DNA of 64,000 nucleotides, from positions 35,094,001 to 35,158,000 of the forward strand of contig OZ076409.1 of NCBI GenBank assembly GCA_964187785.1. Reading direction: 5' to 3'. The stretch comes from Amphiscolops sp. MND2022. Lineage: Eukaryota. The notes beneath the pieces are model-generated. The model saw only the letters and a program-made list of their open reading frames with translations. It had not been told where the DNA came from and did no database searches. How positions within the stretch are numbered: the first letter of the stretch is position 1; each line of letters opens with the position of its first letter. Below, one piece after another: positions 2,998-58,240 of the stretch. Made by a program: the position numbers and the translations under genes.

Positions 2998-3154
2998 GGA
3001 AGTGCAAATTTTCCTAAGGGACTCAGTCTTTTGCCAGTGCTACAACTTAGTTGTTTCAAACTTGTTATTCTCAAACTATCCTTATTCCTCTAACCTTGTT
3101 GAAAATCAGAAAGAAAAAATTGAATTCTTCAAGAACAAATCTTTCTTCAACAAC

Positions 3155-3554
3155 ATGTCTACAACAAGAAGCCAAAAGAGAAAGAATGCCCAGCGGGAAG
3201 CTGATGATAATGTAAGTGAAGGCTTCGTTTCACCGATAAATATGGAAAATTCCCATCCTTTAGACCAAAACGTAGAATTAGCAGGTCCTTCGAAACCCAA
3301 GTCCCCCTGGGTAGAAAATAGTTTCCTGGAAAGTATAAGGTCCTCCCTGAAGGAAGAAATAACGTCTGAGAATAAGACCCTTTTGCTCGAGTCGCAAAAG
3401 GAAATGTTGAAACTCTTGAAACCTGAAACGCGAGAAAACATAAGAGATCATGTATCGGAAGAATTAGAGAATGAAACGAGAAGTTTCTATACTCCAACGA
3501 AAACAGTGCGAATTAATTTTACCCAAAACGAAGATCAGAACATTATTCGTAACA
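3155..3554 (+). pseudogene. N-terminal fragment of a putative gag ORF beginning inside the LTR
   Basis: MSTTRSQKRK basic start, then coiled-coil-like SLKEEITSENKTLLLESQKEMLKLL. The frame runs off the LTR end (...IIRN) into flanking DNA and stops at 3592. Confidence 0.5.
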
Positions 3555-15907: not shown

Positions 15908-18812
15908 CCGACTGTTTGGTTTCGACAAATGGAATCCCAGTTTGTCTTGGCTGGAATTACCACCGACACCACCAAATATCACCACATCCTCGCAGCAATC
16001 CCAGAAGACGTCGCAATCAACTTCCCAATGGAAATTGAAGATTACAGCAGCCTCAAGGATAGCATCACTCAAGTCTGCCAGAAGTCAAAAACAAAACTGA
16101 TTGAAGAAGCATTAGAAACGATTTCACTGGCTGGACTAAAGCCCTCAATTTGCCTCTTGCGCATCCAGCGCAAGCTTTCAGAATGTCATCTGACAATGGA
16201 AAACGATGTAATCAAACACCGCCTTATGCAAGCCATGCCAGTCTCAACGCGTTCCTCACTTTCCGCACATTTGGACCTGCCACCCGACAAATTCGCCAAA
16301 CTAGCTGACACCATATACAGCTACTCGAAGGACACGTTTCCGACTTCAACACGCCATGTACTCACAATACCACTCATCGCATCGCCGTTTCGTCTCAACC
16401 TAATTTTTGTACGCCTAGGAAGCTTTGTCCTGAAAAGCTATCTATCGCCAAATCTTCTTTCGACGAAATGCAACGCTTAGGAAACATCCGCCCAACGAAA
16501 AGCCTATACGCATCGCCTCTGCATATGGTACCGAAAAAAGACCCCGTAGACTGGAGACCGTTTGGAGACTACCGCGCCCTCAAGCATATTACCGTTCGCG
16601 ATTCTTACCCACTGTCACAGCTTTCATCGTTCGCACTTACGACAAACATTTTTTCAGCAAACTAGACTTAGACAAAGCTTATCACCGAAGTCCCATCCAC
16701 ACCGACGACATTGAGAAGACAGCCTATACGACTCCTTTCGGACTCTTTGAGTTTCTTCGCATGCCTTTCGGACTCAAGAACGCCGGTAAAACTTTCCAAC
16801 GAAGTCACCGACGGATTGCCAGATGTGTTCGCCTACGCCGATGATATACTCGTCGCCAGCAACAATTTGGTTGATCACATCAACGCACTAACAGAACTCT
16901 TCATCCGCCTCGAGAAGTTTGGACTACGCCTTAACTTCAAAAAATGCCAATAGATACAACACCTAATCGACTTTTTTAGGATACACCATAGTATCGGAAG
17001 GAATCAAACCACAGATAGCAAGGACAAAGACGCTCGCAGAACTACCAGAACCAACAGATTACAAAGAACTTCGACGTTATATGGGAATGTTCTCATTTTA
17101 TCGGCAACATATCCCACACTACGCACATATAGTTGAACCACTACAACAGCTTCTCAACGCAACACAGCCGAAACAATCCTACCGCGGGAAGAATTGCCAA
17201 CAACAATCAGCACTAACACCTTTCATCATGTTAGAAGATCACTGCAAAGCCTTCTCTACACTGAAGACCCAACTCGCTAATGCAACACTTCTTCATCACC
17301 TCACAGAAAACTCAACAGTTCCTCATACTACAAATGCTTCTGATTCAGCCATGGGAACCGCCTTACACGAGATAACAGACAACAGCAGCCGCCCTATTGC
17401 ATTTTTCTTTCGCCGATTCACTGCCGCCGAAAGAAATTACAGCACATTTGATAAGGAACTCCTCGCTATCTTCGCAGCAACACTAAAGTTCAAACATCTG
17501 ATTGAAGGACGCCATACCGTTGTTTTCACAGACCACAAACCCATCACCTGTTCTTTTCAACGAAGCCAAACCAACACCAACAACCCTCGACAGTCTCGAC
17601 AATTTTCTCTACTAGCAGAATACATCGACGAAATTCAACATATCTCAGGATCAACAAATGTTGTAGCCGACTGCCTTTCTCGACCTTCGACCGACAACAC
17701 ATCATTAACTGTAGCATCAACATCAACAGTTTCCATTGACACCTATGATCTACCAAGAATTGCCAGCCTTCAAGACACTTCATTTCAACAAGAGATGTCA
17801 GAACAAAACCAACATGGAACACAGATGATCAACATCGGAACCACGACTCTCACCTGTGATAAAAGCATTCCTCCGCGCCCTATTCTGCCCGAACAATGCC
17901 GTTATCCAATCTTCACCCAATTCCACAACCTTTGCCACAGCAACTGGAAATCAACGTCACGTATGATCCTCGCCCGCTTCACGTGGCCCAAAGCTCAACG
18001 CACTATCAAAGAATGGTGCCACAACCGCCTCACTTGCCAACAGATGAAAATCACTCGCCATATACATCCTTCAACACGCCAACTCAATGAAGCCGTCGCC
18101 CGTTTTACCCACGTTCACATGGATATCGTAGGACCACTACCTGCAATCAACAATTCGCCATTCCGATACCTTGTTACCTTCGTCGACCGCAGCACCAATT
18201 GGATTGGAGCCCACCCAGTACATTCCATCACAGCCGAAGAAGTTTGCCACGCTTTTCTCACATCCTGGTTTTCTCGCTTTGGAGTACCATTGTACATCAC
18301 GACTGACCGTGGAACCCAATTTGAAAGTCAACTGTTCGCTCAACTTTCTCAAACTCTAGGATTTTGCAGACTCCGTACAACTTCATATCATCCACAGAGC
18401 AATGGAAAAGTCGAACGTTTTCATCGAATCCTCAAAGCAGCGTTAATGTCATCAAAGACCGACTGGATAGCAGCACTACCCGTAGTTCTTTTCGGATTGA
18501 GGTCAAAACAAGACAACAATTTCATTTCATCACTACCAGCCACCACAGGACTAGATATACTTTACACGACAACAGCTGCAGAAAAGACAGCAGCCTCTCG
18601 CCTTCATCAAAAACCTGAAAAGACTCTCGCCTTCATCAAAAACCTTCAGGTTAACCTCGAACAGCTAGCTTTCACAAAAGATATCAGACAACATTCAACA
18701 CGAAAGACCTTCATTCCAGGGTGCACTAGACAACTGCAAATTCGTTTGGTTGCGCGTCGACCGAGCAAAGCAACCTTTGGAAGCACCTTACACTGGACCT
18801 TTACATTTTTTG
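15908..18812 (+). mobile_element. Decayed Ty3/Gypsy (CsRN1-like) gag-pol remnant, protease region deleted, no LTRs
   Basis: Gag WFRQMESQFVLAGITTDTTKY. RT PEKLSIAKSSFDEM..IRPTKSLYASPLHMVPKK..WRPFGDYRAL, YADD. RNase H NASDSAMG / ERNYSTFDKELLAI / TDHKP / ADCLSR. Integrase H..H...TC, HMDIVGPLP, TTDRGTQF, NGKVERFHR. GPY-like LEAPYTGP. Several frameshifts and stops. Confidence 0.93.
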
Positions 18813-19454
18813 CCCATTTAGAAATATTTTACATTTCATTTTCATATATATTGTTACATTTACCATGGTAGCGAGCAATTCATAGTTCGCCGATGACCTC
18901 TTGCGATAATGTTGGTGACTGGCCGGCCACGTGACCAGATAATTAGCGCTAGCCCCTGCAAACCAATGAGAGCGCAGAATGGTTAGAATTGCGCCTTATC
19001 ATTCGTTTACTACCTACAAAACTAGCGAAAGAGTTTTATCAAACCATTAACATTTGATACGATTTGCAACTTGACATTCACTTGATCGACGTACTATGAC
19101 ATTATCCATCGTTTGTAAACTAGACTCTGGAAATTGTTGTTCCAAACGATCGAGGAATAACCTTGATTTCTCTCCTTCGTAACAGCAAAGTAGACATCTT
19201 CGTCCTGTGATCCATTTTTTTGCAATTGTATGAATAGTTCTCCACCCGGGCAACTTGGAAGTAGGAAAACACTTCTTTCTGAAAATTCAAAACCTCAAAT
19301 AGAAGCAACATACAAAAATCACACTAGCACAATGAATCCGTGAAAAAATTTTGAACAACAAGATGCTCAGCCTCATTCGCAATCCCCCGCTTTGACGAAA
19401 GAGACTCACAAAGAAAAATGTGGAGAGGTTCGAGAAATTTCATGCCTACAATTA

Positions 19455-44009: not shown

Positions 44010-47000
44010 TTAAAAATATTCTACCCCACCTAGTTTCACTACTCTTCGTGCTGATTTTATCCTTTCGGATCTACGCGGTTCAGGTTCTGATTTTATTTGA
44101 TTTTTTTCAAAGTAAGAGTTTTGATCCGCCCTAATTTTACCTGTTATCCCGTCTCCTGGTTCGGCGATTTCGATTCCAGTGTCGAGCGTTGTTTGGCGGT
44201 GTATCGGTGTGCCCTGAATATCCGGCTGTGGTGGAGTATTGGCCCGTCCGGTGCTACATCCGACTTGTGTTTTGGGTGCCGGTGTCTGTTCCCGCAATCT
44301 TTCGATTTCACGTCCGATCTCGGCTCTGAGGTCTGCCTCTTCCGGATCCTCTTCTTCTCTATCGGAGTTTGGGGTGTCTTCTCCTGAGCTATGGTCGGTT
44401 GTGTTGGACGAATCGTAAACGGTTACCCGTTTGTATTTTTTCTTTGCGGGCATTGTCGGGAAGTTGCGGCTGGTGCTCGGTCCTTCCTCGGCATCGTTGT
44501 TATTGTTATCTAGTTGTCGGTGTGTTTCGCAGTATCTGTCGCTGCTGAATTTACCACATCTTTTGCATCGGGTGATGGCCTTCTTCGGTTCGTCTGGTTT
44601 CCTTTGGGTCTGAAATTTTAAAGGTTTAGAGGCAAGTTTTTTGTGTATTATTCTGCCGTCAGAGGTAGTGACCGTATGGTCGGTTTCTTTTGTTGCCGTT
44701 AAAATTTTATCCGTTTTGAAACCACATTTCATTGAATTGGGTCTGCTTTCTTTTTCTAAAAATTGATAGTTTTTGAATTTCCGGCTTACCGTACGACTTC
44801 TTTTTCGAGTATCGTTGAGCACCAGGTAGTCAGCCATTTCCCCTTCAGCATCGTTGATGGTGACTACTTGTAACTCTGTTGGTTGTGCTGAAATGTAATT
44901 AGTTAGTGTATTCTTCCAATTGGATAACAGACATTCAGGTTTACCGATTATGTTGATAAGTGCAGTTCTTGGCTTTCTGCCTAAGTGCATTTGAAATGGC
45001 GTCATATTTAATCTACTGTGTGGAGTTTGTCTGATTGTTTTGATTGCTAATTGGATGCTGTCTTCAAATTTTAATCCATCGGCCATATTCGCTCTAGTTA
45101 ATGACTTAATTGTCCGTATCGTACGCTCGACTAGACCAGTGCCGGTATGTAAGTTCGGAGTGCATCGTATTCGTTTTATGTTTTCATCCGCGCAAAATTT
45201 TTTAAATTCGCTGCTTTTGAAGCAGCTGCCGTTATCGGTTCTAATGCACTGTGGTGTCCCGTTGTTCGTGAAATATTCGGTTAAAAATTTCAAAACGGTC
45301 CGAGTATCCGCACTTTTGCATACTTGTGCGGTGGGCCACTTACTAAAACGGTCTACTGCTACTAAAATGTAAACGTCACCGCGTGATTTTGATTTGATTG
45401 GACCGGCGAAATCCAATTGAATCTCTTGATTCGGCTCGGTTAGAATTTCTAAATTATTTTTCTCCGTTGACGGAATTTGTGTAATGATGTTCTTACCTGC
45501 GGCTCTACAACTCGGGCATGTTTCCGCTTTTTCATGCACGTCTCGGTTCAGGCCGGGCCACCAGAAGGCTTCTGCAAGTTGTTCCATTTTGTTTTTGGAG
45601 ACATGGCCGTGATGCAGCATAGCAATGATTGTCGACCGCATGTTTTCCGGTATGACTATTCTGTCGTTATAGAATAGCAGTCCGAATCTGGTTGATAGAT
45701 GTAGGCGGTGGGGGCGGTAGGGGTAAAATATACTCTCCAATTGTTGCTGTTCGATTGCGGCAATTGTGTTTAGAATTTTGATATCGCGTGCTGTCTCCTC
45801 CACTAATAGGGGCAAGTCCAGTGCGAAATCCTTCTCAGCTTTCTTCAGTACGTTAGCGGTATTTTCGTTTTGCTCTGGATCTAGCGTGTTCAGTTTGGCC
45901 GTCTGTTTTAGTCTAATGAGATTAACCGTTTCGTGCTTCTTGAACCGTCTCAATGCGTTGGTGGGGCATTTGTCTTGCTTTATTTGGCTCGTCTGGCTTT
46001 CTCCATCGGACTGATTGCTGTTGATCCAGGATTCATTATTGTTCTGTTGGAATTCTTGTAGAGGGGTCGTGTTTAATGTTTCGCAATAGTGGAAGAAACG
46101 GTTATAAATTTCAATGTTTAATTCCGCAATTCGTTTTCGCCCCGCTTGATTTGGCCTGTATTCTTGAATTCTCTCGCTTTCTTTGCCCTTGCCCACTATT
46201 CGTGTTTTGTCCGGTTTTAGGATATGGTTTCTTTCAATCCATAGACGTTTCGTTTCTGGTGAGTGGCCCCTTTTTTTAAATATAAAATCCATATCGATTC
46301 CGTTGACTTTGTCCATTTTATTGCTTGGCGGTGGTAAAGTTTTGAATGAGTTTAGAATGCTGCTGTTTGGTAACGGTGAGGCTTTAAGCAAATGAGTATT
46401 TTGGTTCCGTTCGCGTGTGTTAAAGCCGCGTTGTGATTGGTTGAATTTTTCTGTCGTGTCGTTTTGTTCAGTGAATCGTTTTATGCTGCCGCATTTTTGG
46501 TTGAATTCTAATAAGCCGTATATTTGATTAATGACGAACTCTTCTTCGGCTTCCGCTTCAATTAATCCGTCCGCTTTGTTTTCTAGTTCGGTGATCTCGG
46601 ATGGTATAATCGGATGACGGCTCAAATAGTCCGTCAGCGGAATGTTTTTACCGGCCGTGTATTGGACATTAACGTCGAAATGGCTCAACCTATCCAGCCA
46701 GCGTGTTAACCGTGCGCTGTATTGTTTATGAGCTCGGTTCTTTTTTAACAACGGTTGTAACGCCTGGTGATCTGTTAACAAATTTACTCTTTTTCCGTAC
46801 ACAAAATACCTGAAGTATTCTAAACCCCACAGAGCCCCTAATAATTCTAGTTCATTGATTGCGTATTTCTTTTCACAATCAGTTAAAAATCTACTTGCGA
46901 ATGCTACGGGTCTAAAAATTTCACCTTCTTTCTGCCATAGTGTTGCGCCCAGTCCGGTATTGCATGCGTCTGTGGTGATATAGTTTTCCTTCTGTGGATC

Positions 47001-49370
47001 GAAATGTGCTAGGCATGGAGCCTCTGTAATCTCTTTCTTCAGCTTTTCGAAGTCTTCATCTATCTCGGGTGTCCACTCCCATTTGGTATCCTTTCTCAAG
47101 AGTTTCCTCATTTCATCGGTTTTCTTCGATAGATTGTTGATAAACTTTGATAAATGCTGTATTGATCCCAGGAATGATTTCAATTCTTTCACGTTCTTCG
47201 GGGCTTCTAATTTGGTTATTGCTTCCGTTTTGTCCTTGATTGGTTTGACACCGTTTTGGTTGATATAGTAGCCAAGCCAGGTTAATTCTCTTTTGAATAA
47301 TTCTGTTTTCTTTTCACTTGCCCGGTAGCCGGCGTCTTGCAGTTTTGACAAAACTTCTCGCAGTTCTTTTTCATGATCTTCGATGTCACCATTAGTCACG
47401 CATATGATATCGTCTAGCCAGACCGGTGTTTTGAATTCCAACACGGAGTCGATGTGTTCTTGGAATACCGTAGGAATGTCGGATAGGCCGTAGAAACCTT
47501 TCTTGAACCGGTAGTGTCCGGTGAATTCTCCCCCAATGATGGAAAATACGCAATGTCTTGCGGCTTCTTTCGACAATTTCGCTTGTCCGTATGCATAATC
47601 TAGATCAATTTTGGACATCCAAATATCCCCATTTCCTTTGGTAATTTTTGCGGAAATTTTGCTGATCAATTCTTCCATATTTGGCATTGCGGCTTTTCTT
47701 TTTATGCATGCGTCGTTCAGTTTTCGTGAATCCAAAGCTATTTTGACAGATTTGTCCTTTTTGATGGTGATGACTGCGGGTGATACAAAGCAATTTTCAG
47801 TTGTTCTGTCGGCCTTTTCCAGGTGTCCTTTGTCTATTAGTTTTTCTAACTCTTCACGGACAATTTTCTGGAAATGTATCGGGACTGGCCGTCCCTTTTG
47901 CTGGATTGGCTTGGCGTCTTTCTTCAACTGAATGTCGATAGTAAGGTCTTTGATAGTGTGGTTGTTTTTGAATAGGTCTTCGTATTCGTTGAGGATTCTT
48001 TTTCTTCTTTCGTCTTCTGTCACATGACGAATAACATTTGTTTTCTTGCTGCCTTGTAATCCAATTTCCAATTTATCAAGCCAGTCCAAGCCCAATAATG
48101 GTTGAGTATTTTTATTTTCTGTTATTAAGATAGGTAATATCTCTCTGCTTTTTTCTGTTTTCACTTCAACCATGGCTTCCCCCTTGAATTTTATTGGGTT
48201 CTTGTTTACATCCACAAATGTTTTTGTCGTTTTCTTCACTTCGGTCAAATCAATAATTGGCGGAATAATTGTGACCGGAGAGCCGGTATCGATAATGAAT
48301 TCTATTGGCTGGCCGTGGACCAATAGGACGGTTTTGTAGAAATCAACTCGGTTGATACCGTTCACGGATTGAATGTGGTCCACTTCCGGCCATGATTCGG
48401 TGTTACTGTCCGATGAAACCGTTTCGGCTATCCGGCTTACGGTCTTGGATTTGCATACCTTGGCAAAGTGTCCCATCTTTTTACAAATATTGCATTGTGC
48501 TCTCCGTGCCGGACAAATATGTTCCATGGACCAGTTTGGTTTTCCGCAAAAGCGACAGTTTTTGTTCGTTGATTTCTTTTTTTCGTTGTTTTGTGTCCTC
48601 CGCTTCCGTGATTGGTTCGTATGTCCGATTAGTTCGGTGCTTGTTGAGCTACTTGTGGAATCTCTCTTGGCTTTTTTGGTTTTGGATTTTTTATCACCGT
48701 ACTTTCTGTTGTAATTGTCGAGCTCTATGGTCTCCAATACCAGTTGTATTTTCAGAGGGCCCTTTATAAATTTGTCCCGGGCTCGTTTGTCTTTAATTGT
48801 GGCTGCAAATTTGTACGTGATGATTTCTTCTGCCGTTATGTTCCCAAATTCACACTTTCTTTCGATGTCCACTAGCCTCTTCCAATATTCATCTAGAGTT
48901 TCGTTATCGTCTTGCTTCATGTTGAAAAATTGGGCCCTGCTGTGGAAGACGTTTCTTGCCGGGAGAAATGTTTTTTTGAATAGTGTCAATAGTTCGGGCA
49001 ATTTGACATCTTTTATTTCTCGGCCCCATTGTCCTCTCATGATCTCATGTTTGGCTTTTGGGCCTAAAGCCCATATAACGTCACCTTTTATATGGTATAC
49101 CGTGTGGGGGTCCATGTATTCTACTCCTTCATCGGTAATTTCGTCCAAGTTTCGGTTGTAGGTCAGAAGAATGTATTCTGAAATTTGTTCCCACCACATC
49201 TTTGGGTTGGCTTTGGTAAGATCGGTTTCTCTATCAGACAAAATGGGAATCTTGTATTTACTTTTTTCCGCTCTTTCTGATATCGTTTGATTGTTGGTTG
49301 TCCGTGTTGTCTGTTCCGAAGACATCGGTCTGTCCTCCGTGGAGTTGAGGTCAGTGTTGTTATTATCCAT
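44010..49370 (-). CDS. Gag-Pol polyprotein (Gag with 2 Zn knuckles, aspartic protease, RT, RNase H, integrase), 1786 aa
   Basis: Knuckles CRFCGKPNWSMEHIC and CNICKKMGHFAKVC; protease IDTGS; RT KIDLDYAYGQ and WLDD; RNase H TTDACNTGLGA, ELELLG, TDHQAL; integrase HHGH...CPSC, LDFAGP, TDNGSCF, LVERTIRT. Domain order PR-RT-RH-IN is Ty3/Gypsy. Confidence 0.97.
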   Translation of the reverse strand: MDNNNTDLNSTEDRPMSSEQTTRTTNNQTISERAEKSKYKIPILSDRETDLTKANPKMWWEQISEYILLTYNRNLDEITDEGVEYMDPHTVYHIKGDVIWALGPKAKHEIMRGQWGREIKDVKLPELLTLFKKTFLPARNVFHSRAQFFNMKQDDNETLDEYWKRLVDIERKCEFGNITAEEIITYKFAATIKDKRARDKFIKGPLKIQLVLETIELDNYNRKYGDKKSKTKKAKRDSTSSSTSTELIGHTNQSRKRRTQNNEKKKSTNKNCRFCGKPNWSMEHICPARRAQCNICKKMGHFAKVCKSKTVSRIAETVSSDSNTESWPEVDHIQSVNGINRVDFYKTVLLVHGQPIEFIIDTGSPVTIIPPIIDLTEVKKTTKTFVDVNKNPIKFKGEAMVEVKTEKSREILPILITENKNTQPLLGLDWLDKLEIGLQGSKKTNVIRHVTEDERRKRILNEYEDLFKNNHTIKDLTIDIQLKKDAKPIQQKGRPVPIHFQKIVREELEKLIDKGHLEKADRTTENCFVSPAVITIKKDKSVKIALDSRKLNDACIKRKAAMPNMEELISKISAKITKGNGDIWMSKIDLDYAYGQAKLSKEAARHCVFSIIGGEFTGHYRFKKGFYGLSDIPTVFQEHIDSVLEFKTPVWLDDIICVTNGDIEDHEKELREVLSKLQDAGYRASEKKTELFKRELTWLGYYINQNGVKPIKDKTEAITKLEAPKNVKELKSFLGSIQHLSKFINNLSKKTDEMRKLLRKDTKWEWTPEIDEDFEKLKKEITEAPCLAHFDPQKENYITTDACNTGLGATLWQKEGEIFRPVAFASRFLTDCEKKYAINELELLGALWGLEYFRYFVYGKRVNLLTDHQALQPLLKKNRAHKQYSARLTRWLDRLSHFDVNVQYTAGKNIPLTDYLSRHPIIPSEITELENKADGLIEAEAEEEFVINQIYGLLEFNQKCGSIKRFTEQNDTTEKFNQSQRGFNTRERNQNTHLLKASPLPNSSILNSFKTLPPPSNKMDKVNGIDMDFIFKKRGHSPETKRLWIERNHILKPDKTRIVGKGKESERIQEYRPNQAGRKRIAELNIEIYNRFFHYCETLNTTPLQEFQQNNNESWINSNQSDGESQTSQIKQDKCPTNALRRFKKHETVNLIRLKQTAKLNTLDPEQNENTANVLKKAEKDFALDLPLLVEETARDIKILNTIAAIEQQQLESIFYPYRPHRLHLSTRFGLLFYNDRIVIPENMRSTIIAMLHHGHVSKNKMEQLAEAFWWPGLNRDVHEKAETCPSCRAAGKNIITQIPSTEKNNLEILTEPNQEIQLDFAGPIKSKSRGDVYILVAVDRFSKWPTAQVCKSADTRTVLKFLTEYFTNNGTPQCIRTDNGSCFKSSEFKKFCADENIKRIRCTPNLHTGTGLVERTIRTIKSLTRANMADGLKFEDSIQLAIKTIRQTPHSRLNMTPFQMHLGRKPRTALINIIGKPECLLSNWKNTLTNYISAQPTELQVVTINDAEGEMADYLVLNDTRKRSRTVSRKFKNYQFLEKESRPNSMKCGFKTDKILTATKETDHTVTTSDGRIIHKKLASKPLKFQTQRKPDEPKKAITRCKRCGKFSSDRYCETHRQLDNNNNDAEEGPSTSRNFPTMPAKKKYKRVTVYDSSNTTDHSSGEDTPNSDREEEDPEEADLRAEIGREIERLREQTPAPKTQVGCSTGRANTPPQPDIQGTPIHRQTTLDTGIEIAEPGDGITGKIRADQNSYFEKNQIKSEPEPRRSERIKSARRVVKLGGVEYF

Positions 49371-49391
49371 TGTTTTTCTTTTTGTTCAAGA

Positions 49392-49597: not shown

Positions 49598-50611
49598 ACT
49601 CCGCAATTGCCATATACTTTACCCGTCACAAAATGGATTTGGGAGCCCGTATGGATTTCGACAGGAGACGCAAGTCTTGTTCTTGTTTTCACACCAGCAA
49701 TGACGTCACTGGCATGGCGTCTCTTCAAGTGGGGCCCCGTAGAGGCAGCTGTGCCTTCCCCAGATCAGGCTCTTTCATGATGCAGCCCATCTTTTTAAAC
49801 TTAAACACTACTGCCCAGAGAAGTCATTCCATTGTCTCTCAAGTTAAGGTGAGTGACCTCTACTGGCAAAAATCTGACCTCAGCGTCTGCCAAAAGGGTC
49901 TGAATTGAATTAGTCAAGTTCTGGACATTTGAAATACGTAGGATCGAAAAATGTGCAAAATTATCTAAGATCGAAAGAGGTGAAAGTTTCATTAATATCC
50001 CACCATACCTATAGTGCGTTACATGCAGGAGTGAAACGGAGTGGCGTGCTACTACTTGACGGCAGGTTTTAACGAAGGCCGACCTGGAGGGACGCATAGT
50101 GCCCCGGACAGACGAATGCTGGGTCAAACAATCGATTTTGATTTTTAAAATTATCTTGAAGTTATCATTTTCGAGCCTGTATATTCGGATTCTGAATAAT
50201 TCGACTCTGAAGAAGCAACTCCTCCCGACTAGTTTGGGGAATCCTGGAGTAGTCCTTGCTAGTTCAGGGAACCCTGAGGATGTGCTGCCAAGTTCTAGGG
50301 CAAAACTCAACCAAAAAACTGTCCAAGCCTGGTTTGGAGCTTCATTTAGGAATTCATGATGAGAAGGTTCGAAAGACACAAAAACAAAAAATCACTCCCT
50401 TGGGAGTAAGTCTTGGGTGCTTCTAGACGACATTTAAGGTATCATTTCTGAGAAGTAATATCTCTTGGGTACTTCAAAAAATTAAAGCTGCTAGAGCTGT
50501 TTGCAGATCTTCGATTTGATGAACTGACCTTTGTACGCTTAAAATCAAACTTGAGAATAAAAATTTAACACCGATATAGGACTCTATAACCTTTTCTATA
50601 GCTTGTATTTT

Positions 50612-51457
50612 AACAAGACGGGAACGTCCCAAGTCGGCGCTATACCTAAGGCTCAAACAGCGCAAACTTTTTGAAATATGCTAACAACAACGCTTCGAAA
50701 CACCCAACGGTAACTTTAATGCTCGGAAAACACTTCAGAAGGTCGGATATAGCGTGTTGAGACAAATGCGAGCACTTTTTTTGATCCTACGGCTCCTCCT
50801 CAGTAAAACGCAAATTACTTCGGCTATAAAATCCAAAGTTCGGATATAGCGTGCTGGGACAAATGGGAACGCTTGTTTTCAAACCTCCACCTCCAACATT
50901 CACATAATATTGAAAAACATGATCGGTGGATATTCATTGAGAGAACCTAATATCAGACAAAAAATGAGAACTGTGAACAGTGTCGTAAAGCCGACAGAAA
51001 GGATAAAGGGGGACAAATGAGGATGTTTACCATCCTACCTGTTGCAAAATGTCAAAAAAATTGAAGGGGGATCTTTTGAAGACACTGAAAAGTTTCGAAA
51101 AAAAAACAAAAAACGAGATTTTTGAACCTTGTCACAGGGCCAAAAAACATAAAAGGGAGACCCTTCAGGATTTTTTAAACATCCACTCTGTTGCAAAATA
51201 TCAAAAAAATGAAGGGGAACCCTTTAGTGAAATAAAAAAAATCGAAAAAAAGTCTCATAGTGGCGAAAGCAATCGAAGTTAAAAGTACCAAGATAGCGAA
51301 AGGGGGATCTTTAATGTGTTTACGGGGTTCTGGACGTGTTTTGTTTTGAACGCAGTTGAAGTTGAACAAATGAACAAAAAAATGGACCTTACGTGTCTAG
51401 AAAAATTACACATTGTGAGAGTTGGGCTCTTTTCTTGAAAAGCGTTGCTAATTAAAA
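50612..51457 (-). mobile_element. HINE/DINE-1-like copy (longer, more diverged)
   Basis: AACAAGACGGGAACGTCCCAAGTCGGCGC terminus. The opposite end is degenerate (gaaaagcgttgctaattaaaa). Confidence 0.7.
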
Positions 51458-53280
51458 TTAGTGCCCAATGTTGCTGAACTACAACATTTAGTTTTTCAGG
51501 AGTTCATCAGTTTTTTGTAGATGTAATGAAACAATACTTTCTTTTTGGATCATTTTGATCATTATCACCTAATTGAATAACTTTAATCCTGGGTAAATTC
51601 ACTGCTCAATATCTGAGACGTCATGAAGAAAAATTTACTCCCGAGAGTTTTTTGAACTGTATCAGTTTCAAATCTTGAACTCTCGCCTCTAAAGCGCACC
51701 AAAATAACTGTGTCTTGTCTTTTTCCAGTAGTTAAAGTTCAACACTGAGCAGCTGGATTAATTCTGCCCCGAAATAATCTAATGAAAACATAATTTTAAA
51801 GCTTGAAAGTAGCCTATGAAAAAGCAAAGAAGTTTGAAACACTAAAAAATTGACACCTGATTCATCTTGAAATTTCCTTTCATTTTAAAGGAAAACATTC
51901 AAGTTAGGAGCATGGTAGATACCACATGTTTTGTTGCTGAACTCTGTGGACACCGATACCAACCTAAAATTTCAAAAAAGCTATCAAGATGCCGAAAAAA
52001 GACGGAAGTTCCGAATAAAGAAAAAAAATCAACTTTCTCCCCAATGAGGCAAGGTCCGGGATTGGCCCTTGCTTGATTTTCGAATGCGGTACCCCAAAGC
52101 AAGCTGCAGTAACATATTTGCAACCACCGCAAGGTCAACTGCTGGTGGGTTTGAAGCTATGACTTCGAAGTGATTCGGTCTAGTTCACAAAGTCATGACA
52201 GCCCGTGGTTTGTTTTTCTAACTTTGTTTTCTCTTCCAAGTGTTTTTTCGAGACCATTCCACAGAGCTAGGGATTAGGAGGTTCTTCGAAACTCAACAAT
52301 ACTGAGTTCAAAGAGATTTGAACATGAATTCGCACCATTACATGCCAAATGCTTCAACAACTACGCCATGTTTCGCAGAAACAAAAACTTTTAAAAGCTT
52401 TTTCATGAAGTTTGACATAAAAACTGTGATTTCTCAAAACCAAAACCATGCTTAGTAGTTTAATATTTTGCTCTAGAACTATTTGAATCTTCACACCTCC
52501 GGAAACATCCCAAAGATGTTCAGAAATTGGGAAAAAACGTCAAACATTTTTTCATGACATTATCGGATCTTCCATGCATTTTTATCAGAAAATCATAACA
52601 ATTTTGCTACCAAATGATGCTGAATAGCCATCTAATGCTTTCTGTTGAACACTTTACTACTCTCAAAATTTTTGTCGTTGTGTATCTTATTCAAGGCATT
52701 ACTTCAAAAGAAAAACTTAGTTTTACCTGAACATCCAGAACACAATGTTTTTATCAGCCAGAATAAAGCTTTTGATGCATTCTAACGAATTTCTCTCTAA
52801 AATTTCTCTGGAATTTCTCTCAAAAATACGTATATTTCTTCCAACGAAAGCAGTCTAAACTTTCACAAAATAGCACAAAACGCCAAAGCAAAACACACTG
52901 GGCCAATTCCTTTTTTAAGATTTTGCATTTTTGTAAACATTCTGTTGCATTAAAGTATCATAAAGCAAAAAGTATACGGAAAAGATAACTGTTTTGTATT
53001 GGAACCCTTTGATTTTTCGTATCCACTGAATCATGTTCATTTTAGACGATCCGACACTTGAAAATTTGGAGAGCTCGGTCAAAGCGTATCTCTGTGGCCG
53101 TTTACTGGGGGTTGAATAGTCTAGTCGAAAAACCTAACGTTTTTCGAAAGATTTGATTTTTTTTCATTTTAACAATTCCATTTACCTGTAAAAACTACAT
53201 TTAAAAAGATCGTTTGTTTTTCATATGCAATTCGTGGTACGTTTTTAAGTAGGTGGATAAAGAGACGCAATGATGTCTTG

Positions 53281-56075
53281 ATGAGACAATAGAGACGTTC
53301 CAATAGTAGGGAAATATAATTCTAGCATCGATGGCGTCATTCATGCATTGAGTTCAATCTAACACTTGATTGTTTTGACCAATCAGAGCGCTCCATTCAA
53401 AGTTGTCAGAGCATTATTACCACATGAGCTTGTTTGGACATTAATTTCACTGCGTATAGTCGCTGTTTCATCAATCTGTAAAGAAACTATACATGTAAGA
53501 GACACTCTGTCAAAATTAACAGTTTCAAAGATTCAATGCTGAAAAACTTCTTTTTTCGAAGTTACCCTTCCCTACAAAAATGTCAGAACGAAGCTTCGAC
53601 GAGTTGTCGAACCTCACAGAAGTTGCTGGGCTTTGTAATTCTTCAATTGCCAACGATGCGCTTCGTCGAGTTACCACTCAGATGCTAGAAGAAGCAGAAA
53701 TCGAAAATTCAGAAATGGTCGGCGAACAAGTCCCAAACAATGATAAGCCATCAATTGAGAATGAACGATCCACATCTACACCAGTTGTGCCCAACAAAAC
53801 AAAATCAAGCCACGGGAAATTTCTATAGATGCAAAAATTGGCTCTGAAAGGAAAACGCCAGAAGCAGGATCGTCCCAAGGCTTGTTTTGTTTGCTCTAGG
53901 AATTATACCATTTAGAGACAGCATCTGACGAAGACACACCAGCTTTCGAAAAAACACCACAATTTCTTGCTATCGTTCCACAGAACGCAGCTTTGCACAT
54001 CTACGGTGTATCAGTGTAACACGTGTTGTGTACGTTTTACTGGAAGAAAAACACAAAAAGTCCTGCACAAATCCTCAAATTATTCGCGTGCGAGCGGATT
54101 CTAAGGACGAATATCCAATTGACATCAAAGATGATGTACCCACAACATCTGGAAACATCTCCCAAGTTCATCGCTTACTCGCAGATTACGATGAAAACCG
54201 AATTGATGCAGGAGACCAACCTCTGACTCGCTTCCAAAAAACGTCATAATCAAAGTTGTGGATGTGACGAAACTTTATAGGAAGCCAATGCACCTGAACA
54301 TTGTGTGCAACCAGGTTAAATCCGAGAAAAATCACACCTTCTAAACCTTGCGCAAATTCCTCTCCGAGACGTCTAGGCTGATCAGGTATTTGCAAGTGTT
54401 ACAAGCAGAAAGAGTATCGTTTCAACCCCGGCTTGATCACTCGAGAGTTGAGGACCCTATTACAAAACACAGCCTAAAAATCTGCAAAATTCAACAGCAT
54501 GACGATACAGAGGTTGGACAAATTATCCAATCTGTTTCAAGTTGCCTATCTCAAGCAAATGGTCAAGGAACTTCTGGAAAATCACCCACAGCAAGTTTTC
54601 ACTTATGTCTGCTGGTCTATCTGGTGCACTTGGAATCGAAAAGCCGCAAAGGACCTTTGTTGCAACTTTCTAAGGTAGAATTTGATGAAATGAAAAATAA
54701 GAAAGTCCTCACAACGTTGGAGCACAAAACTGGGTCCAATTTCCCCAATTTCGTTCGAATTACTGAAGAAAACCGCAAGTGGATCGAAGACCTTCACGAA
54801 AAATTTGTGGAAGAAAAAGATAGTGTTGCCCCAAAGTTTGCGTTTCCTTCTCCAAGTACCCAAAAAATTCACACGTCAGGCAAAGTGCCTCAAGAAGACC
54901 ATAAAACGGTTTTTCGCCACTGATGACAAGCTTTACAACCCAGACAACATTCGCAAAGCCTGGGACAGTTACCGAACCAAAACAAACTTTGTGGATGGCA
55001 CTGATGCGATCCTGAATACCGGTCTTTCTGAAGCCACACGAAACAAATACTACCTGAAACCGGCCACAGATGAAGAAATCACAAAATTTCTCGACAAACA
55101 ACTGAACTTGATTGAGGACCCCGTGAACTGTTATGTTGCGGACGATGACCGCCCAAAGCCCATGCCAGTTGTTGAGGATCATCGGAAGGAGGTGCAGGAA
55201 CAAGTAGATGATGGAGAATATGAAGATGAAGAACGAAGCAACGAAGACGTTCATGGACATTCATGACAGAGACGCCGTGACTCCAGACGCAGCTGAAGAG
55301 AACAAAACGGAGGATTCGGACAAAGAAATTAGCGCATCCGACACCCTATCCCTCGCGAATGACGACTCGTTTCCAGATATTGACGATTACGAGACACGGA
55401 ATAAGGCCAAGAAGAAGAATCCACCAAAAGAAGAACCAGTTGACGCATCTGCCGAGAAAGCCAAAGGATGATCCGAGATTAGAGTCAAACTTTTGAAATT
55501 AAAAGCGCTGAGGATCCATTGCGGAAACAGCTTATTACCCTGTTTCATCAAGTTTGCGACCGCATGCGCTACATTACACGTGGGGAGCTCAAACAATTGG
55601 CCCAAGCCCAGGGTGCCAGTGAGAGGGAAGCCAACATTTTGGCTGAGAAAGCCGTCAAAAAAGTGTGTAACGTAATGACGAGTTTGGGATACTAAAACTG
55701 GCTACAATTGCTTTTAATTGTTTTTACATTACTTTTTTGAGTTGTTCTTAGCTATACGTACCTTACTTTGACTTGTTATTTTGTGTTTTATGGTCATTTC
55801 AGCCGTTGAATGAAAAAGTTGTAATTTTCGTTGGAACGTTTTTATTGTCCTAAAAAGTCTAAGCGTCTTGTATCAGCATATCGAAACCTGCATAACGTAT
55901 CTATAGTCACCTACAATGGTGGTTCAAAAATTAGGAAAAAGTTTCAAACGTCTTTTGTTTTGATAAACTAAAACATTCCCGGTGAGAAAACAACGAAAAA
56001 CAGATTCTTTAAAATTCATCAATGGGGTATCCTGTAGGAACCTGGAAACTGGACTGAGCGTCTCTATTGTCACAT
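53281..56075 (+). mobile_element. Inverted-repeat-bounded element carrying a tyrosine recombinase (Crypton-like)
   Basis: 20-bp terminal IR ATGAGACAATAGAGACGTTC (53281-53300) vs GAGCGTCTCTATTGTCACAT (56056-56075), 18/20. No TSD seen. Encloses one decayed gene. Confidence 0.65.
53580..55680 (+). pseudogene. Decayed C2H2 zinc finger + tyrosine recombinase gene
   Basis: Stitched frames give CFVC-x9-H-x4-H, a second CxxC (CNTC), core-binding-like TLRKFLSETSRLIRYL, box I LESKSRKGPLLQL, HKTG, YNPDNIRKAW, ILNTGLSEATRNKYY (expected GHS; CAT>CTT) and an acidic tail. Confidence 0.7.
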
Positions 56076-57294
56076 TTCACAAGTATGCAATTAAGTTTTT
56101 TCTGTACTTTACCTGAATCATTTCGAGCAGAACAGTTTTCAAAATTGAATTACCGGTGCATCCGACACGTCCGTAGAAACATTGGAAACAAACGAGATTC
56201 TTTTTCTGTGAATTCTAGATTTTGCTAGAGCGTGTCTGATATAATCCGAATGGGGGGTCAAAACGTATAGTATCGACACTGAAAAGAGTCAGAGCGTATC
56301 CGATAAACGTCATCATTCAGAACTTGTAACAAGTGCGCCGAAATGTACCGAAAATGAGGAATTCTACGTTTTAAGAAGATATTTCTTGGTTTGTTTCGGA
56401 ATTGCTTCGATGCTGGAATTGACGGGTATTCTAATCTACGAAAAGTTACTAAGACTGTCAGATTTCAGCAGTACATTGTCGACAAATGGCTTTTGTGTTT
56501 TTTCAGGAAGCTTCTATAACAATAAACGTTTTAATTTGAAAAACCTACTGAACAGCTTTTTGTTTCAATATCAAAGTTGCCCAAAAACCTGTACAAAACC
56601 ATATCGCACAAAACTAAGCTCATGGTAGTTGTGTTCTGTGAGCAAAACTCTGCAATTAGAATATGAATTAGGAACATGGAAAATTTCCAGGAAAATGAAA
56701 AATTGCGGCTCAGTTAGTACTTTTGTCACTACCGTTTAGAAATATGGGCGGAAACACCTTGCTTTGAAAGATCAAACCGGGAACAGAATAAAGAAGGCAT
56801 ATTACTCTCGATAGATAAGGAACCGTTTGTGAGAAAAACTTCGAACAGGTCACAGTGCCAAAAATTATCAATGAGGCAGAAACGAGAACCCCTTGTGGAA
56901 AAAATTGCATAGTGTTGAAAAACTCAAAGAAGGACACTGTGGTGTGTCACAAGGCATTGAATTGAAATGAAATTATGAAAATTTGAAAAAAAAAGTTTCT
57001 GCAAATTTTTGACCATTTAAAGTTTAAGCGTATTGCAGAGCATTAGAGCCGGTAGATAATTTGTCTTATAATTCTTACAGCGCTTACTAAAAGGAAATCG
57101 TTCAATGAAGTTTCTTTTACTCTTGGAACACTAGCAGAAAGTGAAAAAATAAGCGCGTAAAGTTTTCCAATTGAAGCGTAAACTGATTGCTCATTGTTGT
57201 TGCCAGATTTTTCCTATCTTCTGCTATCATTTATACTGCTTATACATCATTGCTGAACCACTATGTTTCTTATGCACTCATTGATATTGCATAT

Positions 57295-58240
57295 GATAAT
57301 GCACTCATTGAAGAATGGAAGTTCCCGAATCACATGACGTCAGCTTTTGTAATCCCTTTTCATGAGAAAGGTGACTGCGAAAATCCCATTAAATACAGGC
57401 CTGTCTCTATCACTCCCGCATTAGCGAAATTGTTAGAAAACGTTCTACATGAACAAAAATCCGAGTATCTCTCTGATTTTTAAAAAAATTATATCTGAAT
57501 TGAACGCTGATAAAACCAAATTTATCACTTTAATTTACCACAGAACAAACAAAAACAACAAATACCAAAATACAAACTTGATTGTTAAAGATGAAATCAT
57601 TTGTTCAAATAGCACTATCGAATATTTGGGTGCCTACCTGCATCAAAATCTATCAATTAAAGAAAAAGTTAACCATATATTCCGAAAAATGGCATGCGGA
57701 ATCAAAACTCTCGATTCCGTCAGAGACTATTTTCCTGAAAAAGTCGGTCACTGCTATGAAATGCCCTCGTAATCAGTCATCTCCACTACCCGGCAATTTT
57801 GTTGAATGGTTCAACTGAAAATCATAACACGACCCTAGTGAAACAACTGAATTGGGGAATAAAATTCTGTTCCAATCGAACAAAGTACGATGGATCATCA
57901 GATCTTAAGATCAAACATAACATCCTACCGATCCGATACTTCCTTAAAAACAAAACAACATCATGCATCTGGAAATGGAAAAACAACCTAATCCCGGCAT
58001 TCCGAGACCCACCTCTGGACACTGGCAAAATACGAAAAGAATCCCGAACTGAGACTTTTTACTTCAATATCTTTTGTAGATCTAATTTTCTGAGAAACAG
58101 TTTTTTCAAGAAAACTGTGCCCCCGTGGAACACCCTGCCAAAAAATATACCCAAAAGAGTGTGTTTTTGCTACTGCCAAAATCAAAATCACCAACTTCTA
58201 TCTCACAAAAATGAACACCGAAATCAACTTTCCTGAATCA
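57295..58240 (+). mobile_element. Internally deleted non-LTR retrotransposon (CR1/L2-like) RT remnant
   Basis: FPNHMTSAFVIPFHEKGDCENPIKYRPVSITPALAKLLE (RT N-terminal motif) is joined directly to LNADKTKFI and IEYLGAYLHQNLS (RT C-terminal/thumb). The catalytic core is missing and there are frameshifts. Confidence 0.85.

What the first reader, a model, noticed from the sequence alone, without database searches (positions are those of the whole stretch)
53281..56075. 2.8-kb IR-bounded DNA element encoding a zinc-finger tyrosine recombinase
Seen: a 20-bp terminal IR (18/20) without TSD encloses a decayed gene with a C2H2 finger and R...HKT...NIRK...G(H>L)S...KYY spacing. LRR remnants continue on both sides. 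Known: R-K-HxxR-H/W-Y is the tyrosine-recombinase signature, and eukaryotic YR-only DNA transposons are Cryptons. There is no RT, so it is not DIRS/Ngaro. Inference: a compact Crypton-like family with an N-terminal Zn finger, a non-canonical HxxR (DNIR) and IR ends that may be recombinase-binding arms. Possibly an undescribed group.
Basis: partly seen in the sequence, partly recalled or inferred. Interest (0 to 1): 0.75.

Follow-up and report, generated by a model that had tools for sequence, protein, structure and literature searches.

The report
Broken microsatellite-seeking recombinase transposon copy
This is a dead copy of a 3.3-kb jumping gene whose single protein is predicted to fold as a DNA cut-and-rejoin enzyme (tyrosine recombinase); its family and five sister families sit in simple three-letter repeats, and one sister family has identical intact copies that would allow a test of whether such elements move as circles.

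Summary
The gene is real but the element was mis-bounded. All 13 copies compared are broken. An intact sister protein models as a tyrosine recombinase (XerA Z 12.6, Cre 11.0) behind two zinc-finger-like motifs. The HxxR histidine is absent from all 49 aligned relatives, so it is a lineage trait, not decay. Families A, B, C, F sit in (ATC)n, D and E in (TAA)n; E has 15 identical copies on 9 contigs, and empty paralogous sites show one repeat unit duplicated on insertion. Likely mechanism (inferred): excision as a circle with a loxP-like junction, then integration at one repeat unit. It behaves like CryptonV; membership could not be tested by sequence. The scan noted similar elements before, in this genome and others. 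New member of a known, thinly described kind.

The parts
53034..56312 (+). Whole element (family A copy), 3279 bp between the direct repeats
   Evidence: 12 other full-length copies at 75-87% identity align from 53030 to 56316
53031..53033 (+). Left 3-bp direct repeat (TCA), one unit of the (ATC)n target
   Evidence: 14 of 15 distinct left flanks end in TCA
56313..56315 (+). Right 3-bp direct repeat (TCA); the element's own last three bases 56310-56312 are also TCA
   Evidence: 9 of 10 distinct right flanks begin with two TCA units
53034..53051 (+). Left terminal arm, imperfect inverted repeat of the right arm; putative recombinase core site
   Evidence: 11/18 match in this copy, 16/22 in copy L005; role inferred
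56292..56309 (-). Right terminal arm; putative recombinase core site
   Evidence: role inferred
53281..53300 (+).
   Evidence: motif kept at 53291 in 10 of 13 and at 53261 in 12 of 13 copies; the non-coding derivative shares element bases 1-272/284 only
56056..56075 (-).
   Evidence: I13, I16; kept in 11 of 13 copies; the derivative shares element bases 3028-3287 only
53580..55695 (+). Broken recombinase gene, about 711 codons in the family; here 7 frameshifts and 5 stops
   Evidence: tblastn with natural relatives P0008, P0012, P0009; lesion count
53883..54066 (+). Two zinc-binding-like motifs: C-x2-C-x9-H-x4-H (53883-53939) and C-x2-C-x9-H-x3-C (54015-54066, broken by a frameshift near 54048)
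   Evidence: metal binding not tested; no Pfam C2H2 match for the intact relatives
54645..55053 (+). Catalytic region: Arg (54645), Lys of HKT (54726), Asp in place of the HxxR His (54943), Arg (54952), His changed to Leu in this copy (55024), Tyr (55051)
   Evidence: fold match of the intact sister protein
55450..55692 (+). Conserved C-terminal four-helix domain of about 80 residues behind an acidic linker; function unknown
   Evidence: present in in-genome families and distant relatives; model pLDDT 85; no fold match above Z 6.9

Best explanation
The window holds a dead copy of a 3.3-kb DNA transposon whose family sits mostly in (ATC)n microsatellites and whose one protein is predicted to be a tyrosine recombinase that likely excises the element as a circle and likely re-inserts it at a single repeat unit. 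Shown: the ends, the 3-bp direct repeat, the repeat-biased flanks, the non-coding derivative, the empty-site comparison in sister family E. Predicted: the fold. This copy landed off-target at a lone TCA and then decayed.
For: Ends and copies. Repeat flanks: 13 of 25 family A left-end matches have an (ATC)-phase flank; 27 of 27 family B right ends that matched the end pattern (of 30 loci examined) start with two TCA units, 26 of them with three or more; 18 of 20 young family E copies have 7 or more TAA units on the left; the 64-kb window has no tract of 5 or more units of either repeat. Different families stand side by side in one tract. At non-repeat sites 6 of 7 family A left flanks end in one TCA not preceded by another, and 6 of 6 right ends carry two TCA units. 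Empty sites: family E copies inside two host repeats (L124, L143; L141, L144) against unoccupied paralogues, 13 of 24 and 21 of 24 printed rows with the plain site, show a net gain of three TAA units beside the core and a minimum target of one unit. Terminal arms match as inverted repeats about the spacer in A 16/22, B 15/22, C 18/22. Fold: model pLDDT 84; top rows are all tyrosine recombinases, XerA Z 12.6 (244 aligned, rmsd 11.8), XerH 11.8 (264, 6.5), Cre 11.0 (266, 6.9), covering core-binding and catalytic domains; same order in the search without Foldseek. Catalytic Arg, Lys, Arg, His, Tyr kept in 43, 43, 47, 47, 46 of 49 aligned proteins. Fifteen identical 3330-bp family E copies on 9 contigs with an open 761-residue frame. 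Recombination sites of two 11-13 bp inverted repeats around 6-8 bp, and the circle model for Cryptons, are stated in PMC3212892; circles were detected for fungal Starships (bioRxiv 10.64898/2026.09.21.753150).
Against: No circle, excision or activity was observed. The HxxR histidine is replaced in all 49 proteins (N 28, T 16, D 3, K 1, P 1), so catalysis rests on the other residues and is untested. Foldseek E-values were weak (best 1.8e-3 in PDB; 9.3e-4 among viral models) and Pfam Phage_integrase matched only 3 of 49 members. Families D, E and F show no inverted match at the plain register (6/30, 7/30, 10/30); for E an inner 8-bp motif becomes symmetric only if one TAA unit is counted as part of the left arm. 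A 3-bp overlap is shorter than the usual 6-8 bp, and the data cannot tell a 3-bp stagger from a 6-bp stagger with half mismatch. Empty sites were shown for family E only; the window's own flanks are single-copy. About half of family A left ends are not in a repeat tract (12 of 25, some of them truncated or duplicate matches).
Confidence: 0.72

Rival explanations
1. The element is a recombinase transposon, but it does not seek existing microsatellites: it inserts at any single TCA (or TAA) and the two or three terminal units then grow into tracts by slippage.
For: A single unit suffices as a target; 6 of 7 non-repeat left flanks end in one TCA; each insertion adds repeat units.
Against: Identical, hence very young, family E copies already have 7 to 116 units on the left in 18 of 20 cases, while old off-target copies such as this one have grown no tract. 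Unrelated families share tracts.
Confidence: 0.1
2. The protein is a recombinase-fold DNA-binding protein that moves the element by another route (for example replicative, or through an RNA step supplied in trans), the missing HxxR histidine marking a changed chemistry.
For: No His at that position in 49 of 49 proteins; copy number rises, which plain excision and reintegration does not explain by itself; 3-bp overlap is unusual.
Against: Five other catalytic positions are kept in 43-47 of 49 proteins that are only about 20-30% identical; 15 copies without a single difference and with both ends intact fit DNA copying better than reverse transcription (inference); no poly(A) tail or 5' truncation series was seen in the full-length sets.
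Confidence: 0.1
3. The element is a stripped-down remnant or satellite of a large DNA virus (nimavirus- or Polinton-like) that kept only its integrase.
For: Telomere-inserting nimaviruses carry recombinases with a C2H2 domain and target simple repeats (PMC10871703, passages); the top structural neighbour of a distant relative in the ESM Atlas is a Preplasmiviricota cluster (TM 0.59/0.63, under the tool's bar for naming).
Against: All six families are 3.3-3.4 kb with one gene and host repeat on both sides; no relative was confirmed in viral contigs with two alignments; viral fold hits are generic, 9-15% identity. A shared ancestor with viral integrases remains possible and was not testable.
Confidence: 0.06

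Closest known systems
CryptonV (Kapitonov and Jurka 2012, Repbase Reports 12:2034; not seen, known here only from its title and one sentence in PMC8869645)
   Same: Recombinase-encoding DNA transposon of animals with families inserted specifically in microsatellites. ESM Atlas feature neighbours of this clade are unnamed eukaryotic proteins from Mollusca, Chordata and Cnidaria, which fits but does not prove kinship.
   Different: Cannot be stated: no CryptonV sequence or structural description was reachable. Whether CryptonV has the zinc fingers, the N/T/D in place of His, the 3-bp repeat or the motif arrays is unknown to me.
CryptonF, S, A, I (Kojima and Jurka 2011, PMC3212892; abstract, Background, first third of Results and the animal section read)
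   Same: One recombinase, no RT or DDE enzyme, short direct repeats in F and S, non-autonomous derivatives that keep a few hundred bases of each end (438 and 260 bp in CryptonI-1N1; about 272 and 260 bp here).
   Different: Those are described without terminal inverted repeats, with 4-6 bp direct repeats (F, S) or no terminal repeats and no C-terminal domain (A, I). Here: 3-bp repeat, imperfect terminal arms in three of six families, subterminal motif arrays, N-terminal zinc motifs, a C-terminal domain, microsatellite targets. DUF3504, NDC10_II and GCR1_C were not among the Pfam matches of 49 members.
Telomere-associated recombinases of endogenous nimaviruses (Kawato et al. 2023, PMC10871703; passages)
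   Same: Recombinase with a C2H2 domain and a SAM-like core-binding domain, only five of seven key residues located, insertion into a simple repeat, copies joined across a repeat tract.
   Different: Those enzymes ride on viral genomes of hundreds of kb and target (TAACC)n or 28S rDNA; this element is 3.3 kb, single-gene and targets trinucleotides. Sequence kinship was not tested.
Tn916/Tn1549 integrases, Cre-loxP, XerA/XerH (PDB 6emy, 1nzb, 5hxy, 5jjv)
   Same: Predicted fold, Z 10.7-12.6; inverted arms around a 6-bp centre in the inferred circle.
   Different: 7-14% identity; eukaryotic host; His of HxxR absent; repeat-tract target. Tolerance of a mismatched spacer by Tn916-type enzymes is recalled, not tested.
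Starships (bioRxiv 10.64898/2026.09.21.753150; passages)
   Same: Eukaryotic recombinase transposons with short flanking microhomology (TTAC) for which a circle was detected.
   Different: Giant fungal cargo elements with a different recombinase family; DUF3435 was not among the Pfam matches.

Membership tests
Tyrosine recombinase superfamily | Core-binding plus catalytic domain fold | tested here: met
   Model of the intact family B protein, residues 98-400, Z 12.6 to XerA, 11.0 to Cre; best unrelated row Z 7.0; same families lead
Tyrosine recombinase superfamily | Arg, Lys, Arg, His/Trp, Tyr catalytic positions | tested here: met
   43, 43, 47, 47, 46 of 49 aligned proteins; the window copy has lost the His (Leu)
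Tyrosine recombinase superfamily | His of the HxxR motif (R-H-R-Y tetrad) | tested here: not met
   0 of 49; N 28, T 16, D 3, K 1, P 1
Tyrosine recombinase superfamily | Recombinase activity through a phosphotyrosine | not testable with these tools
   needs an assay
Crypton (broad: recombinase-only eukaryotic DNA transposon) | Dispersed multi-copy element with defined ends and a recombinase as only enzyme, no RT or DDE transposase | tested here: met
   one long frame per intact copy, no RT or DDE Pfam match
Crypton (broad) | Short terminal direct repeat of 4-6 bp | tested here: not met
   A direct repeat exists but is 3 bp at non-repeat sites; inside tracts its length cannot be read
Crypton (broad) | No terminal inverted repeats (as described for groups F, S, A, I) | tested here: inconclusive
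   Imperfect arms in A, B, C (15-18 of 22), none at plain register in D, E, F
Crypton (broad) | Circular intermediate (proposed, PMC3212892) | not testable with these tools
   no sequencing run could be laid on the element
CryptonV | Insertion into microsatellites | tested here: met
CryptonV | Recombinase groups with Repbase CryptonV sequences | not testable with these tools
   no CryptonV sequence available; three papers name the group, none of the passages describes it beyond one sentence
CryptonA | DUF3504 recombinase, no C-terminal domain, no terminal repeats | tested here: not met
   no DUF3504 match among 49 members at E 0.05; a C-terminal domain and a direct repeat are present
CryptonF | GCR1_C C-terminal domain, 6-bp direct repeats | tested here: not met
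   no GCR1_C or NDC10_II match; repeat is 3 bp
DIRS/Ngaro/VIPER retrotransposons | Reverse transcriptase and RNase H within the element | tested here: not met
   3.3-3.4 kb elements with one frame and no RT match
Nimaviral telomere-associated recombinases | Phylogenetic grouping with those enzymes | not testable with these tools

The most novel reading that the evidence does not exclude
These elements form a lineage of animal recombinase transposons separate from the Repbase CryptonV set: a zinc-finger, N/T/DxxR recombinase with a C-terminal four-helix domain that reads its own terminal motif arrays, needs a single trinucleotide of homology, has switched between (ATC)n and (TAA)n targets within one genome, and is moving now (family E). 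It would be a 3.3-kb single-gene eukaryotic integrase system with re-targetable repeat specificity, and a possible source of the repeat-targeting integrases of large DNA viruses.
Probability: 0.3. Interest if true: 0.68.

Novelty: new member of a known kind. Interest (0 to 1): 0.42.

Why it matters
The copy in the window is a fossil and matters little. The clan behind it matters more. Microsatellite-targeting Cryptons are named in the open papers I could search only in one sentence and in class lists, and the circle model for Cryptons is given as a proposal (PMC3212892; still called a hypothesis in the 2026 Starship preprint). Here six families in one genome give ends, targets, empty sites, a non-coding derivative and intact frames, one with 15 identical copies. 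That makes three questions directly testable: whether a Crypton-type element makes circles, how a recombinase without the HxxR histidine works, and which domain picks (ATC)n against (TAA)n. A one-gene integrase that lands in harmless repeat tracts could also be of use as an insertion tool.

Tried and rejected
Pfam on the window's broken frames: nothing above threshold; on intact sister proteins: no recombinase family. Sequence searches of solved structures: 0 matches for the single protein, only chance matches for two profiles. The third homologue search, with the broad 49-protein profile, returned only its first member, so no named relative was found. Viral contigs: 25 and 176 pattern matches, none confirmed. 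Metagenome contigs: 405 and 597 pattern matches, none confirmed, so the ends of relatives in other organisms were not seen. Sequencing runs for family E: none was listed, so no reads were laid; this is no evidence on circles or expression. Empty site for the window copy: both flanks single-copy. C-terminal domain: no Foldseek match under E 0.5, best Z 6.9 among helical bundles; no family named. The zinc-finger region (model residues 1-95) was not covered by the fold hits and was not folded alone. Tree (44 of 49 rows kept, no outside reference recombinases): the six in-genome families fall in one 10-row clade (99/97) and A, B, F group (99/97), but D and E are not supported as sisters, so the number of target switches is open. 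Rejected: the 20-bp repeat as terminal repeat of a cut-and-paste element (copies extend beyond it; no DDE enzyme); DIRS/Ngaro (no RT); DNIR as decay (it stands in intact relatives P0005, P0008); insertion inside an LRR gene (no support on the right). Kojima's 2020 review and the Repbase report were not held (not seen). Supplements of PMC10871703 were listed but not read; they may bear on kinship with nimaviral enzymes.

Full report
Observation. The 20-bp inverted repeat is present at the stated places, 18 of 20, and the six-frame translation shows the stated motifs spread over three frames. A search of the own genome (G000, 1.07 Gb) with 53100-56250 gave 50 matches, 12 of them other full-length copies at 75-87% identity that cover the query end to end. 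With flanks, the alignments stop at 53030 and 56316.

True ends. Lined up, the copies begin after TCA and end with two TCA units. Among distinct flanks that matched my end patterns, 14 of 15 left flanks end in TCA and 9 of 10 right flanks start with two units (pure repeat flanks collapse into one row). At non-repeat sites, this window among them, 6 of 7 left flanks have a single TCA and 6 of 6 right ends have two. The element is thus 53034-56312 with a 3-bp direct repeat. The first and last 18-22 bases form an imperfect inverted repeat: 11/18 here, 16/22 in copy L005.

Target. Thirteen of 25 family A left-end matches have an (ATC)-phase flank (the 25 include the window copy, duplicates and truncated ends). 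A protein search of G000 scored 150 of 702 candidates and showed several sister families. I fetched examples: B (726-residue frame), C (766) and F lie in (ATC)n, D (669) and E (761) in (TAA)n, all 3.3-3.4 kb with one long frame. Each family kept one orientation to the repeat in the copies inspected; F faces the other way from A, B, C, and D from E (one copy per family shown). For B, 27 of 30 loci matched the right-end pattern and all 27 start with two TCA units, 26 with three or more. For E, 15 copies on 9 contigs are identical over 3330 bp, and 18 of 20 young copies have 7 or more TAA units on the left. The window itself has no tract of five units of either repeat. Families stand next to each other in shared tracts.

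Empty sites. The window's flanks are single-copy. Family E, however, entered two host repeats twice each, once as a young and once as an older copy (L124, L143; L141, L144). Unoccupied paralogues (29 loci each) read plainly through the site in 13 of 24 and 21 of 24 printed rows, the rest being sequence variants, none with the element. The empty sites hold two and one TAA units, the filled ones five and four. One unit is enough as a target and ends up on both sides. If one TAA is counted into the left arm, an inner 8-bp motif lies at the same distance from both ends and E follows the same rule as A: one unit left, two right.

A short motif recurs in both ends, facing inwards: at 53261, 53291, 55895 and 56058 it is kept in 12, 10, 8 and 11 of 13 copies, with a degenerate copy at 55831-55849. 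B and C carry related subterminal pairs. I infer that the repeat marks the inner limit of the sequence needed in cis and is an accessory binding site. Binding is untested.

Protein. All 13 full-length family A copies compared are broken; this one has 7 frameshifts and 5 stops. Natural intact relatives give the plan: acidic N-terminus, two zinc-binding-like motifs, core-binding domain, catalytic domain, acidic linker, C-terminal four-helix domain. The family B core, folded with 19 sequences, has mean pLDDT 84. Foldseek ranks XerA, Tn1549 integrase and Cre first, with weak E-values (best 1.8e-3). The structural aligner gives XerA Z 12.6, XerH 11.8, Cre 11.0, the best unrelated row 7.0, and the same families lead the search over 48,161 chains. 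A profile search found 216 proteins at E 0.001 or better, 45 at 1e-30. In 49 aligned proteins (7 from this clan's close families, 42 chosen by me for length from the 150 listed) Arg, Lys, Arg, His and Tyr are kept in 43, 43, 47, 47 and 46, while the HxxR His occurs in none. So DNIR is a lineage trait and only the H>L change is decay. Pfam matched Phage_integrase in 3 and Phage_int_SAM_1 in 4 of 49 members; DUF3504, NDC10_II, GCR1_C and DUF3435 are not in the list. None of 20 clusters looked up carried an informative name. Atlas feature neighbours are unnamed proteins of molluscs, chordates and cnidarians.

Mechanism. Shown: ends, direct repeat, target bias, empty sites in E, derivative, conserved residues. 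Predicted: fold. Inferred: recombination between the two ends releases a circle in which the arms face each other across two repeat units, matching the 6-8 bp spacer plan for such enzymes (PMC3212892); the circle recombines with a host tract, needing a match at one unit only; accessory motifs help assemble the complex. Copy gain would need excision or integration coupled to host replication (inference). Whether the cut is staggered by 3 or 6 bp is open. D, E and F lack a plain-register arm match, which counts against a uniform loxP-like site.

Comparison. The behaviour is that reported for some CryptonV families (PMC8869645, one sentence and a citation). The Repbase report and sequences were out of reach, so it works like CryptonV and membership is untested. 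It fails the tested marks of CryptonA, CryptonF and DIRS-type elements. Nimaviral recombinases with a C2H2 domain that target telomere repeats are a second lead (PMC10871703, passages), not testable here. Eight paper searches listed no paper describing the anatomy of microsatellite-targeting Cryptons; I read only passages or sections of eight papers: PMC3212892 (abstract, Background, first third of Results, animal section), PMC8869645, PMC10871703, PMC5753468, PMC13465315, PMC6681497, PMC12220804 and bioRxiv 10.64898/2026.09.21.753150 (passages). Subscription papers and Repbase are not covered. Earlier scan notes report similar elements in this genome (with SET domains, in (CTA)n) and in others; they are unchecked and my CryptonV reading was written before the first look-up.

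Verdict. New member of a known but thinly described kind. Interest 0.42.

Noticed in passing
G000 family E, e.g. L078:1444-4773; L122-L136: Fifteen identical 3330-bp copies on 9 contigs with an open 761-residue frame, nearly all in (TAA)n; the best candidate for a currently mobile member.
   Followed up: yes
L030:1435-2965 (minus), L037:2387-3918, L039:1844-3379 (minus): A 1.53-kb non-coding family with family A ends and an unrelated 1-kb middle that carries one more copy of the end motif.
   Followed up: partly
L032, L033, L034, L086, L088, L089: Chains of different families separated only by repeat tracts, forming element clusters; D and E lie back to back in one (TAA)n tract in L089.
   Followed up: partly
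protein P0062 (JGI/IMG, 895 aa): A relative with an N-terminal SET domain (Pfam E 1.2e-5) before the zinc fingers and recombinase; its DNA could not be fetched.
   Followed up: partly
L074:1647-3653 (family D): The frame ends without the conserved C-terminal domain and with a hydrophobic tail; an intron may follow. Not checked.
   Followed up: no
window 44013-49385 (minus): Open 1791-residue gag-protease-RT-RNase H-integrase frame of an LTR retrotransposon; a second, partial pol frame at 16967-18868 (plus).
   Followed up: no
window 49804-51750 (minus): Scattered leucine-rich fragments with one LRR-like motif near 49857; no Pfam match; possibly a decayed LRR gene.
   Followed up: partly
window 57187-58236 (plus): Frames that look by eye like the end of a LINE reverse transcriptase; no Pfam match.
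   Followed up: no
L101 / L006 left end: The first 16 or so bases of the element appear twice, just upstream of the left end and separated by repeat units: a possible aborted or repeated insertion.
   Followed up: no
G000:C1100:199205-205073 and 74472-80334: A full family E copy followed by 13-15 TAA units and an internally deleted E copy, present twice on one small contig.
   Followed up: no
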